From NCBI GenBank assembly GCA_951406725.2, contig OX597825.1, positions 9,424,001 through 9,488,000 on the forward strand: 64,000 bases of DNA. Direction: 5' to 3'. Origin of the DNA: Octopus vulgaris (taxonomy: Eukaryota). Position 1 is the first letter of the stretch. The number at the start of each line of letters is the position of its first letter. Position numbers and translations under genes: made by a program. The notes under the pieces were generated by a model. That model was not told the DNA's origin. It made no database searches and worked only from the letters and a program-made list of their open reading frames with translations. Shown here in pieces: positions 26,996-62,015 of this stretch.

Positions 26996-27358
<363 letters not shown>

Positions 27359-30560: not shown

Positions 30561-31289
30561 GTGAAACTTTTCCTTATTTCACTGAAATAACTTGTTCTCC
30601 TCAATGATATGCTAACGCTTTACGAAGCATCTTATCCGGCATGACGTTACGGATTTGATTTGCTTAAGCCTTCCTTTTACTGTCAGGATATCTCATTTTT
30701 TGCTATTATATATTTCAATTATTTTATTTTTTTATCTTGTTTCATATTAGAATATTCCAATTTCCTAAGTTTACTTCTTTCCATGATTTTCGACTTGGTT
30801 TTCTTTTTTTTTTTTTTCCTTTCCGTGTTTTATGTTCAGCTGAAAAGTCTTACTTTGTTGGATCCTGTCCGATTCCCATCACTACTACGACTATCACTCA
30901 ACTGATTAGATCATTCAACCTATTGATATTCAGATTTGCTTCCGTGGAAATATTTTCATGTGAGATGCTGTTCAGCTTGGCTTTATATCGTGAAGGTGTG
31001 TGGTGGTGCGTTGCTTGGATATGCGTTTCTGTTTAATTCATGACCATGGTTAGTCTGCGTTACTCGGTATGTAGCATCGAAGAGGCTAGGGAACAGAAGA
31101 AAGAAGAAGAAAGAAGACATGCACCCAACACCAGAGCTGAAGACACCTCCGAAAAGGGGGCCGCCACGTCAAAACAGTAGAGGAGTAGGGGCCGAAACCG
31201 GACATGGTTCCTCCTGATGATGTCTTGAGCTAACTGGATCCTATAAAGGAGCTGTTGTGGTAGCAGACCACGAAACACGGTTGAAATTC

Positions 31290-35125: not shown

Positions 35126-37234
35126 CTTCCAGGAACATATTCGAGAGTTATGCTTTCAGCAAACCATCCAAATCATTTGAAGATACGATGGAAATTTTTA
35201 GCCAGATAAAGCAAGATTTCGTGTTACGCTTTAAAGAAACTTAACTGCAAAATGAAACGGAAAACAATCAAAATATTTAACACAAGGAAACAGTGTTATG
35301 AAAATCTACAAATGTATGCAATAGAATAGATATTTTGCCCCGCCTGCTAACGATTCTACCAGCAGGCCGCCCTAATCTTTATTAATATTAGTATTATTGA
35401 GTAAGGCGGCGTGCTGGCAGAATCGTTAGCACCCCGGGCAAAATTCTTAGCAGTATTTGGTCCATCGTAACGTTCTGAGTTCAAATACCACCGAGGTTGA
35501 CTTTACCTTTCATTTGTTAGAATATGACCGTACGTGAGGAGTTTCGGTGACATTGTTCTCCTCTTGTTCATCAGCGTCCGGCCGCATCCCAACATAACAT
35601 AACATAATGTTATATAAGCCATAATACATGTTTAATATACAGTGCCAAAGTAAATGTATAAAGGAACGCCAAAAACCGTTCTACTTTTATAAAGAGAAGA
35701 TAGATTTTATTCACAATGTACAAAGTGATTTGTGATTATTAGCATAGTGTTGTGTCGTGAATGCATGCTTATAATATTTGTGTCTGTGTGTTCGTGTGTG
35801 CGACAAAAGTACAGAATAAGATTTATGCAAATACAACAGAGCATGAGAGAAGTCTCAACATTTTGAGTTTAAATGAAGTTACTTTAGAGTTATTTTACCA
35901 GTTCATGTAGTACACGATAATGAATTCTATACAAGATTTGAGTCTCGCAGCTGAGATTAATTGAGTCACTTGTGCATATTTTTCTCTTGATATAGATATT
36001 CTTTCAGATATATATACTGCAACTGTTTTCCCGTGGTGAGATTTTCACTCTAACAGCATGAGTTGAATCTGTATTTATCTTGTTGTGTACAAGTTGAAAT
36101 CTTCATAGATGGAGATGATGTTGGTGATGACGTTATGTCTGTCGCTTGGTTTACAATAGCGTCTTCATATTATGTTTGGCTTGGCTGTCGTCTGCCTTTC
36201 GAACTGGAACATGGTTGAATAAGCTCTGTGTGGTCTCCGACCAAGACCTTAAAAGGTCTTAAGCCAAAAGACAGTGAATCGTGATATGATCAGCCTATTT
36301 AAAGAGTTAAGATGGCTCAAATGAAAAGTCCTATCCGAAAGCCGTGATTGGTCAGTTTACACACTGGCGCGAAGTAAGTAGAGAGACAGACCGCACTTAG
36401 ATGCTAACCAATCAGATCAGTGGACACAACAACGTTAAACTAGCCAAAGATGTTTGTAATCTCAAACGAGATCATTCTTAATATTTTTCTCAAACAGTGA
36501 AGATAGCAATGAAGAAAACAATATTGCTACACATTCTTACAGGGTCGATAAAATAAGCACCTGTAAAGCCCTGGCTTCGACGTAATCAACTTTCCCTCTA
36601 CGTCGAACTTGTTGGCCCGGTGCCTTAATTAGAAACCAATATTAAGAGACAAAAACTGAAAAAAAAGGGATTGGAAATGTTATAATTTAATGACAATATA
36701 CAATATATTCATCTATTTATATCAAGAAAACAGCATTGGATGCGGCTTATTTAAAGAGGAGATAAAGTTTGTTTAGTAATTATAAGATTTATGAGGTACG
36801 TTGGAAGGTTTGTTGAGCGGCAGCCAGTTCAGAGCAGCCAACAAAATGTATGGTAGATGCACAGAAACAGAAAATTGTTTCCAAATGAAAGAACAAATGC
36901 GTGTAAGTATGGAAAATATTGAATGAAATATTTTGCAATGGTTTTACTATAATAATGATTTATTGTTTACAGCCAAGAGGAGTCAAAAACCAACAATATT
37001 GACGGAGAAATGTGAAATACTGGAATTGAAATCCCGATAGGAAAGATGTGGAAGCTATACAAATGAATTTCTGTTGTTGTATTATTATTTATCTTGTTGT
37101 TCTCATTTGTTGCTGCTGCCGTTGTTGTTGTTGGTGTTGTTGTTGTTGTTGTTGGCACCTGCAATGTTGTCCGGAACACACCGCCGTCTAACAGTCAGGC
37201 AAGCTTTCGGTGGAAGTTCTCTCTCTTTCTTTTT

Positions 37235-48348: not shown

Positions 48349-49480
48349 ATGAAATTTGTAGGTTTTTGTCTTTTACATAGAAAATAAAGTATTATATAAC
48401 TAAGAACTGAAGAAGTTAAATTATTATAACATTATAAAGCGACAATACAATTTCACCGAAATTCAACAGTCCCATTCAGAATAGAATCTTTTTATTCGTG
48501 TTGTCCAACAAGAAAAGAGGCCAGGTTCGATACCGTCATTTTGGAAAATACTCGCGTGTGTGTGTGAACAATAACTGGTGAATCAAGAGTAGAATTTAAC
48601 GTTATTTTTCATGATGTAATTTTATTATTCATCAATAAAGAACACCTGTGAAACAGGTGTAGTGAAAATCATGCTACCTGTGTTAGATTATACTGTTTTC
48701 TTGATATAAATAGATGAATATATTGTATATTGTCATTAAATTATAAGATTTCCACTCCTGCGCCTTCTACTATATATATATTTATATATATATATATACA
48801 TGTATATATTATATTGAATTAGAGATAAAACCACTATTAGGCAAATCATACAATGAAAAACTTAAGCCAATACATAATATTATTTAATTTATATTATTTA
48901 AATATATAACAAAATTATTAAAAAAATATAATTAATATAACACTACGATCTTTATTGATGAATAATAAAATTACATCATGAAAAATAACGTTAAATTCTA
49001 CTCTTGATTCACCAGTTATTGTTCACACACACACACACACACACGAGTATTTTCCAAAATGACGGTATCGAACCTGACTTCTTTTCTTGTTGGACAACAC
49101 GAATAAAAAGATTCTATTCTGAATGGGACTGTTGAATTTCGGTGAAATTGTATTGTCGCTTTATAATGTAATAATAATTTAACTTCTTCAGTTCTTAGTT
49201 ATATAATACTTTATTTTCTATGTAAAAGACAAAAACCTACAAATTTCATTGATTAAACCTCGCCAAGTTAAATATTTAAACCACCTGATGAATGACTGTA
49301 ACTCGAAAATTTAAAGAAATTAACAGCCATGAAACGATCGTAGTGTTATATTAATTATATTATTTTAATAATTTTATTATATATTTAAATAATATAAATT
49401 AAATAATCTTATGTATTGGCTTAAGTTTTTCATTGTATGATTTGCCTAATAGTAGTTTTATCTCTAATTTAATATAATAT
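48349..49480. repeat. interleaved inverted repeats A-B-A'-B'
   Basis: A 48349-48641 / A' 48949-49249; B 48806-48950 / B' 49336-49480; both pairs are highly similar. Confidence 0.92.
49279..49347 (+). ncRNA. type I hammerhead ribozyme motif (family H2)
   Basis: CAC-CTGATGA-ATGACTGT...ACAGCCAT-GAAAC-GATC-GTA-GTG: intact core, stem II 7 of 8 paired, 2-bp stem III with a palindromic GATC loop; predicted cleavage after 49342. Confidence 0.75.
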
Positions 49481-49565
49481 AATATTTTACTATAAAATTG
49501 GATTCAATCCTAAATCTGTTTTTCCCTGTAAGTTTGGATTTATTCCCTAATATTTATTATTATAC

Positions 49566-49692
<127 letters not shown>

Positions 49693-52700: not shown

Positions 52701-52884
52701 TAGAATAGAAGTAGAATGACTAAAATAGAAAGAAAAGAAAGAAAAGTGGGGAAGGGGGGCAATGAAGACAAGAGAGTCACACGAGTATTATATATAAAAA
52801 AAACTTACTTGTTAATACAAATTCGGTTTGCGTTGCCTTCCATTACTTGATAAATGAAAAACGTATAAACAAACAACGTAACGT

Positions 52885-53507
52885 ATACTGAATGTAAAAA
52901 CAAACAGGAGACAAACAGAGGGTCCGTAATTCTTCAACGGTTATCCAACAATTGATAATATCCACTTATGTCCAAGAGTCTATGTTCCTCTTTTAACATT
53001 GTTATTCAGAAAATTTCCACAGTTTTTCCTTTTATGTTATGAAATTCATAATTTCCCTTGACCTTTGACACGTTGAGATATTGTGATGTTCAGTTAGTTT
53101 ACAAGCTTATAGTATACCAAGAAATTACTGTTGTGTTTTGGTGTGACCGAATGCCATATATTTTCCCCTCGATGCCATCTGGTTTCTGAGAACCATTCAG
53201 AAATAGTTAAATGGACGCTAACACACTTTCTATAGTATAACTAGAAATTTTAATTGATTAACGTATAATACTCGTAATCGCTAAGAAACAAATCATTCGA
53301 TTAATAAATGACTCTGGTCAGGCGATGCGAGACGACGAGCTGAAATTAAAACAATTTGAAATTAATTAAAAATAGTATCCAGCGTCGAGTGTCTTGATCT
53401 TGGCAGCATGGGAACAGCACTAGACATGTCTATTAGTTTAGCCAAAGTATCTCGTGGTAGTTGGCTGCTAATAGGTCCTTATAACATTCAATTCTCTCAT
53501 CCACTGT
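52885..53507. repeat. left arm of a ~620-bp inverted repeat
   Basis: Reverse complement of 57402-58027. Confidence 0.93.
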
Positions 53508-57401: not shown

Positions 57402-58027
57402 CAGTGGATGAGAAAATTGAATGTTATAAGGACCTATTAGCAGCCAACTACCACGAGATACTTTGGCTAAACTAATAGACATGTCTAGTGCTGTTCCCAT
57501 GCTGCCAAGATCAAGACGCTCGACACTGGATACCATTTTTAATTAATTTCAAATTGTTTTAATTTCAGCTCGTCGTCTCGCATCGCCTGACCAGAGTCAT
57601 TTATTAATCGAATGATATGTTTCTTAGCGATTACGAGTATTATACGTTAATCAATTAAAATTTCTAGTTATACTATAGAAAGTGTGTTAGCGTCCATTTA
57701 ACTATTTCTGAATGGTTCTCAGAAACCAGATGGCATCGAGGGGAAAATATATGGCATTCGGTCACACCAAAACACAACGGTAATTTCTTGGTATACTATA
57801 AGCTTGTAAACTAACTGAACATCACAATATCTAAACGTGTCAAAGGTCAAATGAAATTATGAATTTCTAAAAACATAAAAGGAAAAACTGTGGAAATACT
57901 CTGAATAACAATGTTAAAAGAGGGACATGGATTCTTGGACATAATTGGATATCATCAATTGTTGGATAACCATTGAAGAATTACGGACCTTCTGTTCGTC
58001 TCCTCTTCGTTTTTTACATTCAGTATA
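57402..58027. repeat. right arm of a ~620-bp inverted repeat
   Basis: Reverse complement of 52885-53507. Confidence 0.93.
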
Positions 58028-58028
58028 A

Positions 58029-58436
58029 GCTAAGTTATTATATCGAACCCATTTGGCGAACCGCTAAGTTATTATATCGATCTCGATTGGCGAACCGCAA
58101 ACTTATTCTATCCATCTGAATTGGCGAGCCGCTACGTTATTCTATCGGTTTCCTTTGGCGAGCCGCTATGTTATTGTATCGATCACATTTGGCGAACCGT
58201 TAAGTTATTATATCGATTCATTTTGGCGAACCGCTAGGTTATTCTATCGACCGTTTGGCGAACCGCTTGCTTATTATATCGATCTCGTTTGGGGAACCGC
58301 TATGTTATGATATCGGTTTCTTTTGGCGAACCTGTAAATTATATCGATATCGTTTGGCGAACTGTTAAGTTATTCTATCGATATCGTTTGGCGAACCGCT
58401 AGATTATTATAACGCTCTCGTTTGGCGAACCGCTAA
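58029..58436. repeat. 34-bp minisatellite, 12 units, derived from SINE B
   Basis: Consensus GCTAAGTTATT(A/C)TATCGnnnnnnTTTGGCGAACC; compare SINE B TTATTCTATCGGTCTCTTTTGCCGAACCGCTAAG. Confidence 0.9.
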
Positions 58437-60919: not shown

Positions 60920-61210
60920 AATACATTAAATTTACTAAATATTGGGGGCCTGTTGCATCAAAATAGAAACAAAATTTCTTTCCTGAGAGAGCTTACTGCA
61001 TGCAATCAAGCCCTATGCATAGCACTTGTGGAAACTCACCTCAACCCTGGATATTATCGGATAATATCGATATTTAAATATCGATATTATCAAGTTGCCC
61101 GCATGGGAAAATATACCATACAAAGGTAATAATTTTTTACAACTAAAAATAAGGGTGTCTGAGGGACACCACCATGCCGAAATAGCAGTCATATCCCTGA
61201 CTCTAAAGAC
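60920..61210 (+). mobile_element. APE-type LINE endonuclease relic
   Basis: LNLLNIGGLLHQNRNKISFLRELTACNQALCIALVETHLNP matches the N-terminal EEP motifs (N..GL, L.ETH). Confidence 0.65.
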
Positions 61211-61437
61211 CACTTTAAATGTTCATATCGCACCATGAGATAAGACAGAGGGTCAAAATAGACTTGCAAAAGGATATTACTGAATAATTCAAGATCCTGG
61301 ATTTCTAGCTTTGCTAGAAAAGCTAGCAAATCTAGAAATCTAGGATCTTGAATTATTCAGTAATATATTTTTGCAAGTCTATTTTGTCCCTCTGTCTTAT
61401 CTCATGGTGCGATATGAACATTTAAGGTGGTTTTTAG
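61203..61437. repeat. fold-back palindrome, ~115-bp arms, 5-nt loop
   Basis: Arms 61203-61317 and 61323-61437 are reverse complements with a few mismatches. Confidence 0.93.
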
Positions 61438-61609: not shown

Positions 61610-61798
61610 TATATATTTAGTATATTATATTAATTATATTTATTTTTTGTTTTTTATGTTTTGGCTTATGTCTATCACTGAGTTGCCTAATAGTGGTTTT
61701 ATCTCTAATTTAATTTATATTTATACTGTGAAATTTGATTTAATCCTAAATCTAATTTTTCCCTGTAAGTTTGGATATACACCCTAATATTATTAATA
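61610..61798 (+). mobile_element. 3' part of family H2 repeat
   Basis: GCCTAATAGTGGTTTTATCTCTAATTTAAT...TTTTTCCCTGTAAGTTTGGAT...CCCTAATATT also occurs at 49444-49555; both copies end at (TA)n. Confidence 0.75.
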
Positions 61799-61808
61799 TA
61801 TATATATA

Positions 61809-62015
61809 GTTAATCCAAGCATGAAGAAAGAGAAATCACAGCAACGCGAGGACGTGGATCAAGTATAGTGTTATTGGACGCCCAGGAAACGAAAGAAAGA
61901 AGGAGGATTTAACGTTTCGAGCGGAGCTCTTTCGTCAGAAACATAGAAAAAAAGGAAAGATCCAATGAAGGGAAGACGGAGAAAGAAAATCGCCAACGTA
62001 ACATACGCTGTCACA
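61809..62015 (-). mobile_element. family H1 hammerhead-bearing repeat, second copy
   Basis: Homologous to 27141-27358; hammerhead motif TGTTT-CTGACGA-AA-GAGC tcc GCTC-GAAACGTT-AAAT at 61907-61943(-). Confidence 0.7.

What the first reader, a model, noticed from the sequence alone, without database searches (positions are those of the whole stretch)
48349..49560. Pseudoknot-ordered inverted repeats (A-B-A'-B') with a breakpoint inside a hammerhead
Two inverted repeats interleave, with arms of about 295 bp and 145 bp. B' begins exactly at the palindromic GATC loop of the hammerhead (49336), 7 nt before the predicted cleavage site. B joins A' through a TC microhomology at 48949-48950. Inverted partial pLTRs are known for Penelope elements, but an extra inverted copy of ~300 bp of neighbouring DNA suggests several template switches during one insertion (inference). 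A transcript could form competing long hairpins.
Basis: partly seen in the sequence, partly recalled or inferred. Interest (0 to 1): 0.7.

Follow-up and report, generated by a model that had tools for sequence, protein, structure and literature searches.

The report
Penelope insertion patched with flipped flank
A short Penelope-type jumping element sits here as the usual pair of back-to-back pieces, and the gap between them holds a flipped 300-letter copy of the neighbouring chromosome, likely a one-off repair patch of a kind known from human jumping genes; the break inside the ribozyme motif is not a favoured site.

Summary
The A-B-A'-B' layout is real at the stated places. B plus the main copy M (49245-49549) is the normal form of a high-copy, (TA)n-targeting Penelope-like family: 60 of 93 sampled tails have an inverted piece upstream, 44 ending at the same base. 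One relative links this repeat to a GIY-YIG-like ORF remnant with Hydra-clade motifs. A is unique host DNA. Such a local filler occurred in 0 of 176 other insertions. Best reading: both target ends were extended by the reverse transcriptase; the left end folded back on its own flank, copied 301 nt and annealed to the other cDNA. GATC is no hotspot: 8 ends genome-wide, against 9 at a control site and 22 at the cleavage site. Transcription is untested; A/A' is predicted to exclude B/B'. Comparable fillers are in print for L1 and R2, and this scan noted the same thing in two other genomes. Modest interest.

The parts
48349..48641 (.). A: unique host DNA left of the target, the template of the filler
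   Evidence: Only A and A' match it in full genome-wide. A contig of organism E carries it single with both native flanks and with A-type letters at 3 of the 4 A/A' differences.
48642..48769 (.). Host spacer between A and the target; 48690-48758 has one other copy, inverted, at 36668-36736
48770..48804 (.). Left part of the (TA)n target tract; a target-site duplication cannot be resolved inside it
   Evidence: sequence; family copies are flanked by (TA)n
48805..48950 (-). B: inverted, 5'-truncated, tail-less copy of the element; starts at the family's fixed internal end point and stops at GATC
   Evidence: 44 of 60 inverted pieces end at the same base
48949..48950 (.). TC microhomology between B and A'
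   Evidence: 2 nt or more occurs by chance at about 5% of flank positions
48949..49249 (-). A': 301-nt inverted copy of A, the junction filler
49245..49249 (.). TTCAT microhomology between A' and M, the only TTCAT in A'
   Evidence: chance about 0.2% per flank position
49245..49549 (+). M: near full-length copy of a short non-autonomous Penelope-like (Hydra-like) element with tail
   Evidence: (2271 exact tail matches)
49282..49345 (+). Minimal type I hammerhead motif: CTGATGA 49285-49291, stem II, GAAAC 49331-49335, palindromic GATC loop 49336-49339, predicted cut after GTA 49342
   Evidence: motif match and conservation; no Rfam hit; monomer fold unstable
49336..49481 (+). B': the part of M that B duplicates
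49486..49549 (+). About 64-nt 3' tail, present on the direct copy and absent from the inverted pieces
49550..49690 (.). Right (TA)n tract

Best explanation
48805-49549 is an insertion of a Penelope-like element into a (TA)n tract, made of an inverted piece (B), an inverted copy of the left flank (A') and a direct copy (M), and it likely arose in one event in which both cut DNA ends were extended and a fold-back repair patch joined them. Shown: the anatomy, the family membership of B and M, the uniqueness and derived state of A', and both microhomologies. Inferred steps: (1) the endonuclease of an autonomous partner cut both strands in the TA tract. (2) The right end primed cDNA at the tail start, giving M; the left end primed at the internal start about 64 nt further in, giving B, which stopped at GATC, just short of the TTCAT through which several sister copies join B to M. 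(3) With the left arm resected by at least about 460 nt, B's 3' end folded back on its own strand, primed at TC (48640-48641) and copied 301 nt. (4) The copy reached the first TTCAT, matched M's cDNA end, and the ends were joined by microhomology-mediated end joining, probably by host polymerase theta (enzyme not tested). The ribozyme plays no special part in where B stops.
For: Inverted tail-less pieces with a fixed distal end are the family norm: 60 of 93 tails, 44 ending at one base and all within 248-274 of 335. About 30 stand-alone pieces end at the same point (selected by that end). This fits the two reverse-transcription start sites and both-strand cleavage and extension shown in vitro for an Anolis PLE (PMC11167929). 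The filler comes from B's side and is inverted, which is the product expected from in-cis fold-back of the B-bearing end (inference; yeast precedent in PMC11724301 section 15). It ends at the only TTCAT in A'; the next lies 829 nt further on. Ages agree: M differs from the family majority at 3 of 301 sites and B at 2 of 142, so 6.6 A/A' differences are expected and 4 seen (P=0.21). All 3 differences that could be polarised are on A'. Family junctions look like end joining: of 67 clean ones, 29 have microhomology, 5 are blunt, 31 have 1-45 extra letters and 2 have more. One sister copy holds a 140-nt foreign filler at the same junction (L101).
Against: It is a single event: 0 of 176 other insertions had a local-flank filler, so nothing replicates it in this genome. 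The priming microhomology is only 2 nt, and 7 nearer TC sites were passed over. The divergence test has little power and does not exclude a later addition of A'. No contig or read spans the whole structure. In X2 and X4 the A'|M junction was seen but no B|A' junction contig was listed, and in X1 and X3 neither was listed (outputs cut). No reverse-transcriptase-coding copy with this pLTR was found.
Confidence: 0.62

Rival explanations
1. Two steps: an ordinary B-M palindrome inserted first; later the hairpin or cruciform was cut at its centre and the break was repaired with an inverted copy of the flank.
For: A sister copy joins B to M directly at GATC through a TC microhomology (L285), so such a precursor can exist. 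A/A' differences (4) are below the 6.6 expected. The same flank has a second small copy 12 kb away, so it may be a break-prone spot.
Against: The break would have to fall within a few bases of the old junction and lose almost nothing. The divergence is compatible with one event (P=0.21). 176 other palindromic copies show no such scar.
Confidence: 0.13
2. One polymerase, opposite polarity: M's cDNA end invaded the left flank at ATGAA (48349), copied towards the break, then switched back onto its own cDNA at GATC and copied B (self-priming or snap-back, as proposed for PLE palindromes).
For: The longer, 5-nt microhomology is on the M side. Snap-back to cDNA or nearby target DNA is reported for R2 (PMC11371274 passages). 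Self-priming was proposed for PLEs (PMC3846280 passages). Some family junctions hold several element-derived pieces.
Against: It needs strand invasion in the reverse orientation and skips a nearer ATGAA at 48714. It runs past 18 other TC sites in A' before switching. It does not explain why B always stops near one base and never includes the tail, unless the TA-like sequence there acts as a joining site.
Confidence: 0.14
3. RNA capture: the reverse transcriptase jumped from the element RNA to a nascent host transcript of the target locus, copied 301 nt, and the product was joined to M.
For: PLE pLTRs can enclose unrelated host sequence (PMC3846280 section 9). L101 carries non-local DNA at the same junction.
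Against: There is no evidence that the locus is transcribed: no convincing coding frame lies near it and no RNA runs were examined. Microhomology on both sides fits DNA end joining as well.
Confidence: 0.07
4. Assembly artefact (fold-back chimera).
For: The region is AT-rich, palindromic and flanked by microsatellites; no long read was checked.
Against: The arms differ by independent substitutions and a microsatellite slip. Junction-bearing contigs occur in short-read runs, one from a sample under another organism label.
Confidence: 0.04

Closest known systems
EN+ Penelope-like elements with an inverted 5'-truncated pLTR and a one-sided tail; Hydra clade (Craig et al. 2021, PMC8557442, passages read; Arkhipova et al. 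2013, PMC3846280, passages and section 9)
   Same: Head-to-head inverted partial copy, tail on the direct copy only, (TA)n target, hammerhead in the pLTR. A relative (L301) carries an ORF end with CxCX5C, no CC pair between the GIY- and YIG-like motifs, then CxxC and CxH, as described for Hydra.
   Different: M is a non-coding unit of about 0.3 kb, the tail is about 64 nt rather than 30-40, and the junction holds an inverted copy of the local flank. I found that last feature in none of the PLE papers returned.
Templated insertions at L1 retrotransposition junctions (bioRxiv 10.1101/2024.08.27.596794, passages; PMC11702581, passages and section 7; supplementary figures not seen)
   Same: Genomic DNA from near the target is copied into the insertion, and it is rare: 22 cases among about 3,600 classified L1 insertions in one study, 3 in the other. 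Here the upper 95% bound is 1.7%.
   Different: L1 templates are typically under 250 bp and within 15 bp of the site. This one is 301 bp, starts about 165 bp away, and sits between two overlapping element copies in a fixed, non-human genome.
R2/PRINT 'snap-back' 5' junctions (PMC11371274, passages)
   Same: The cDNA 3' end primes further synthesis on itself or, less often, on nearby target DNA.
   Different: In R2 the first-strand cDNA primes; here the geometry favours the opposite end, which had itself been extended.
Local fold-back inversions at double-strand breaks in yeast (PMC11724301, abstract and section 15)
   Same: A resected end folds back, copies its own flank and is joined to the other end with 0-5 nt microhomology.
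   Different: Mostly 5-34 nt (up to over 150), primed by a 10-nt imperfect repeat, with no retroelement involved.
Minimal PLE hammerheads (Cervera and de la Pena 2014, PMC4209133, passages); non-LTR retrozymes (bioRxiv 10.64898/2026.07.22.740005, first fifth read)
   Same: Type I core, long stem II, short stem I and a palindromic stem III loop suited to dimer cleavage.
   Different: The copies are dispersed monomers with inverted partners rather than tandem arrays; cleavage was not tested.

Membership tests
EN+ Penelope-like element (Hydra clade) | Inverted 5'-truncated copy next to the direct copy | tested here: met
   60 of 93 tail-anchored copies; 27 of 39 other best copies
EN+ Penelope-like element (Hydra clade) | Tail present at one end only | tested here: met
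   Inverted pieces end at 248-274 of 335, never with the tail; the tail is about 64 nt, longer than the published 30-40
EN+ Penelope-like element (Hydra clade) | Hammerhead motif in the pLTR | tested here: met
   Core present and near-invariant in 29 copies; stems I and II co-vary between related families. No Rfam hit
EN+ Penelope-like element (Hydra clade) | Insertion into (TA)n | tested here: met
EN+ Penelope-like element (Hydra clade) | C-terminal GIY-YIG endonuclease with CxCX5C linker, no CCHH, CxxC and CxH, upstream of this pLTR | tested here: met
   Met in one relative, not in this copy: the L301 pLTR is 207/220 identical to M, carries the motifs, and has Atlas feature hits of 0.94-0.97 including clusters with GIY-YIG on 27% of members. 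Pfam found nothing, the homologue search found nothing, and the ORF has one internal stop
EN+ Penelope-like element (Hydra clade) | Telomerase-like reverse transcriptase with Hydra motifs (RWK, DKT) linked to this pLTR | tested here: inconclusive
   L301 is truncated before the RT. None of 30 GIY-YIG loci carried this pLTR as its own 3' end
EN+ Penelope-like element (Hydra clade) | Target-site duplication | tested here: inconclusive
   Not resolvable inside (TA)n
Locally templated junction insertion (L1/R2/TMEJ type) | Filler is a copy of unique DNA near the target, and the original is retained | tested here: met
Locally templated junction insertion (L1/R2/TMEJ type) | Microhomology at the filler ends | tested here: met
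   TC and TTCAT; chance about 5% and 0.2% per position
Locally templated junction insertion (L1/R2/TMEJ type) | Formed in the same event as the insertion | tested here: inconclusive
   Divergences are compatible; no allele with B joined directly to M was seen or excluded
Locally templated junction insertion (L1/R2/TMEJ type) | Dependence on polymerase theta or another host repair polymerase | not testable with these tools
   needs a cell assay
Active self-cleaving hammerhead | Cleavage after GUA | not testable with these tools
   Indirect only: about 2.5-fold more element ends at the cut site than at two neighbouring sites, confounded by an ACTA microhomology. The monomer fold is unstable
Non-LTR retrozyme | Tandem units, each with a hammerhead | tested here: not met
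   Sampled copies are monomers with inverted partners; one tandem pair of tail-less pieces was seen (L209)

The most novel reading that the evidence does not exclude
Penelope-like elements integrate through a true two-ended break: both target ends are extended from separate start sites on the RNA and only then joined by host end joining. Inverted, B-side flank fillers like this one would be a recurring, countable signature of that intermediate across animals (this scan noted two more in other genomes). The 69-bp piece at 36668-36736 would be a by-product of the same resected end, dropped 12 kb away.
Probability: 0.25. Interest if true: 0.55.

Novelty: new member of a known kind. Interest (0 to 1): 0.3.

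Why it matters
How Penelope-like elements build their head-to-head repeats is still open: self-priming versus priming from both target ends (PMC3846280, PMC8557442, PMC11167929). A flank copy trapped between the two element pieces shows that the pieces were not contiguous when they were joined, and its side and orientation point to which end did the priming. One case cannot settle the model. It does give a cheap genome-wide test, since side and orientation of fillers can be tallied across the thousands of copies here. The locus itself has no sign of function. A side result may be more useful: this abundant family is tied to a Hydra-like endonuclease, and its truncation points are mildly enriched at the predicted ribozyme cut.

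Tried and rejected
Rfam found no hammerhead, and RNAfold gave no significant monomer fold (z +0.6 to +1.2). A as part of the element consensus was rejected: A is unique. GATC as a hotspot was rejected. My first count of 1 was too low because the pattern excluded a following T; one search added 7. L320 looked like a second local filler, but it is a common SINE nested inside B, and its 95% match to the neighbour is no better than to distant copies. L080, L090, L128, L131, L142, L167 and L301 gaps are element-derived, old copies or separate insertions; L082 is complex and unresolved. One search was spoiled by microsatellite in the mask. One search missed the positive control and was replaced, which recover it. 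Searches hold miscalled or selected junctions; only the 67 clean unselected ones are used. The intact 781-aa RT+GIY-YIG family has a different pLTR and is not the partner. The homologue search with the L301 ORF found nothing, and the large phmmer search could not be run, so the clade call rests on motifs and the Atlas. Missing cover or missing junction contigs in X1, X3, X2 and X4 is no evidence of absence (outputs cut, contigs filtered). No RNA run was examined.

Full report
Setting. The window is G000:C12:9424001-9488000 of a 2.8-Gb animal assembly rich in microsatellites. Earlier notes of this scan call the genome octopus-like; I did not test that.

The observation. A (48349-48641) and A' (48949-49249) are inverted copies with 4 substitutions and one 8-nt slip in a (CA)n run. 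B (48805-48950) and B' (49336-49481) are inverted copies with 5 substitutions. The order is A-B-A'-B'. B stops at the GATC 49336-49339, 7 nt before the predicted cut. TC at 48949-48950 is shared by B and A'. A second, longer microhomology, TTCAT at 49245-49249, joins A' to the main copy M. At random flank positions, 2 nt or more with B's end occurs in about 5% of cases and 5 nt with M's start in about 0.2%.

B and M are an ordinary family insertion. M (49245-49549) had 1661 candidates, of which 40 were scored at 97-100% identity; 27 of the 39 other copies have an adjacent inverted partial copy. A 28-nt tail motif has 2271 exact matches, shared by several subfamilies of about 0.3 to over 1.2 kb. 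Of 93 tails taken in genome order, 60 have an inverted piece within 2.6 kb upstream. 44 of these end at the same base, all end within 248-274 of a 335-nt reference, and none includes the tail. Copies sit in (TA)n. This is the published PLE layout: an inverted 5'-truncated copy and a one-sided tail (PMC8557442; PMC3846280). For an Anolis PLE the tail lies between two reverse-transcription start sites, both strands are cut and extended, and hammerhead cleavage is not needed for insertion in vitro (PMC11167929, parts 1-2 of 4 read).

Which clade. One relative, L301, is 207/220 identical to M over 49272-49494. It runs 1.3 kb upstream into an ORF end with an asparagine-rich stretch, CxCX5C, VVYK...YIG with a single cysteine between, one internal stop, then CxxC and CxH. 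These are the features given for the Hydra clade, which also targets (TA)n (PMC8557442 passages). The Atlas gave feature hits of 0.94-0.97, among them eukaryotic clusters with GIY-YIG on 27% of members. Pfam and the homologue search gave nothing, and no reverse transcriptase linked to this pLTR was found. The intact 781-aa RT+GIY-YIG family of this genome has a different repeat. So the family is PLE-derived and probably Hydra-like; the clade rests on motifs.

A' is a derived copy of unique host DNA. A matches in full only itself and A'. A 622-nt contig from organism E holds A once, with both native flanks, and runs 278 nt past A on the target side, consistent with an empty site (I could see only 30 of those letters). 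It has the A letter at the 3 differences that could be read. A 55-nt contig of X17 matches the B|A' junction at 51 of 51 letters. Contigs of X2 and X4 (one sample, labelled organism B) run from A' 21-22 nt past its end into M with 4 other letters. X17 may be the assembled sample. Together with the independent substitutions in the arms, an artefact is unlikely. M differs from the family majority at 3 of 301 sites and B at 2 of 142; a filler made at insertion time should differ from A at about 6.6 sites, and 4 are seen (P=0.21).

How rare. In 305 loci I found 177 distinct inverted-piece-to-tail insertions. The method recovers this locus, and 0 of the 176 others have a filler from the local flank (upper 95% bound 1.7%). 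The limits are fillers of 15 nt or more, 0.5-2.5 kb of flank searched, and masking of fillers shared with other insertions. Six others were flagged. L101 has about 140 nt of non-local DNA, 89% like a locus on C29. L320 is a nested SINE. L128, L131 and L301 are element-derived, and L082 is unresolved. Among 67 clean unselected junctions, 29 show microhomology, 5 are blunt, 31 have 1-45 extra letters and 2 have more.

The ribozyme link. The motif has the core, long stem II, short stem I and palindromic loop of minimal PLE hammerheads, which are thought to work as dimers (PMC4209133 passages). The monomer fold is unstable (+0.5 kcal/mol) and the palindrome self-pairs at -12. Exact genome-wide patterns give 609 copies intact through the loop. 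There are 8 ends at GATC including this one, 2 of them internal deletions. There are 9 ends at a control site 7 nt upstream, 1 of them a substitution and 2 a duplicated pair. There are 22 ends at the cut site plus TA; 17 of the 20 viewed are true ends. GATC is thus no hotspot (8 vs 9, P=1; 8 vs 22, P=0.016). The patterns differ in context length, and the cut-site peak is confounded by an ACTA microhomology that many of those junctions use. In the unselected sample 1 of 67 inverted pieces ends within 2 nt of GATC and 3 within 2 nt of the cut, while 32 end in the AT-rich stretch from -20 to +25.

Hairpins. On either strand the predicted fold of 48349-49549 forms 290-291 A/A' pairs and no B/B' pair (duplexes -461 and -177 kcal/mol). 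B/B' forms only if A is left out. There is no predicted competition, no convincing coding frame nearby, and no RNA evidence was examined.

Mechanism (inferred). Both target strands are cut in (TA)n. The right end primes at the tail (M) and the left end at the inner start (B). B stops at GATC, just short of the TTCAT through which L003, L007 and L028 join B to M. An end attached to the left arm that folds back on its own resected strand yields exactly an inverted copy of left-side DNA. Synthesis ran to the only TTCAT in A' (the next is 829 nt on) and annealed to M's cDNA. Against this, the priming match is 2 nt and 7 nearer TC sites were skipped. Rivals are a later repair at the palindrome centre, snap-back by M's cDNA, RNA capture and artefact; their odds are given in the rival cells.

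Comparison and novelty. Templated copies of nearby DNA are described at L1 junctions (22 cases, typically under 250 bp and within 15 bp; three cases), as R2 snap-backs and as fold-back inversions at yeast breaks. PLE pLTRs are known to enclose unrelated host DNA. I found no paper on a local inverted filler in a PLE in searches; the library lacks most subscription papers. This scan's notes report the same thing in two other genomes (101 and 77 nt, unchecked). Verdict: real, explained by known processes, a new member of a known kind; interest 0.3.

Noticed in passing
window 36668-36736 and 48690-48758: A 69-bp inverted copy (3 mismatches) of the spacer between A and the target lies 12 kb away, flanked by a repeated ATTGG. 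These are the only two copies found genome-wide. It may be a second templated insertion from the same flank; timing unknown.
   Followed up: partly
L301:556-2070 (G000:C5 near 38.28 Mb): A tail-less piece of this family that extends into a Hydra-like GIY-YIG ORF end with an asparagine-rich stretch; the best lead to the autonomous partner.
   Followed up: partly
family-wide, at the position matching window 49341-49343: Element ends are about 2.5-fold more common at the predicted hammerhead cut than at two neighbouring sites (22 vs 8 and 9). This hints at self-cleaved templates but is confounded by an ACTA microhomology.
   Followed up: partly
L101:733-873: About 140 nt of non-local DNA between the inverted and direct pieces, 89% like a locus on C29 (L126).
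   Followed up: partly
L244, L249, L269: A young intact RT+GIY-YIG Penelope-like family (781-aa open frames, many copies with the same score) that also lands in (TA)n. Its pLTR has a possible hammerhead variant with a U3-A8 pair, read by eye only.
   Followed up: partly
L268 (G000:C1 near 183.008 Mb): Another hammerhead family with the same GAAAC-GATC-GTA core and the same head-to-head layout in (TA)n.
   Followed up: no
L005, L006, L002, L008: The fullest copies of this family meet their inverted partner at a short perfect hairpin at the element's 5' end.
   Followed up: no
window 61654-61779; 27250-27272; 61915-61938; 31137-31275: An older (82%) 3' fragment of the same family, and hammerhead-like motifs of other repeat families.
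   Followed up: no
window 52872-53506 / 57402-58039 and 61203-61437: A 638-bp inverted repeat (95%) and a 235-bp palindrome.
   Followed up: no
L320: A common SINE inserted inside the inverted piece, next to the hammerhead cut site.
   Followed up: yes
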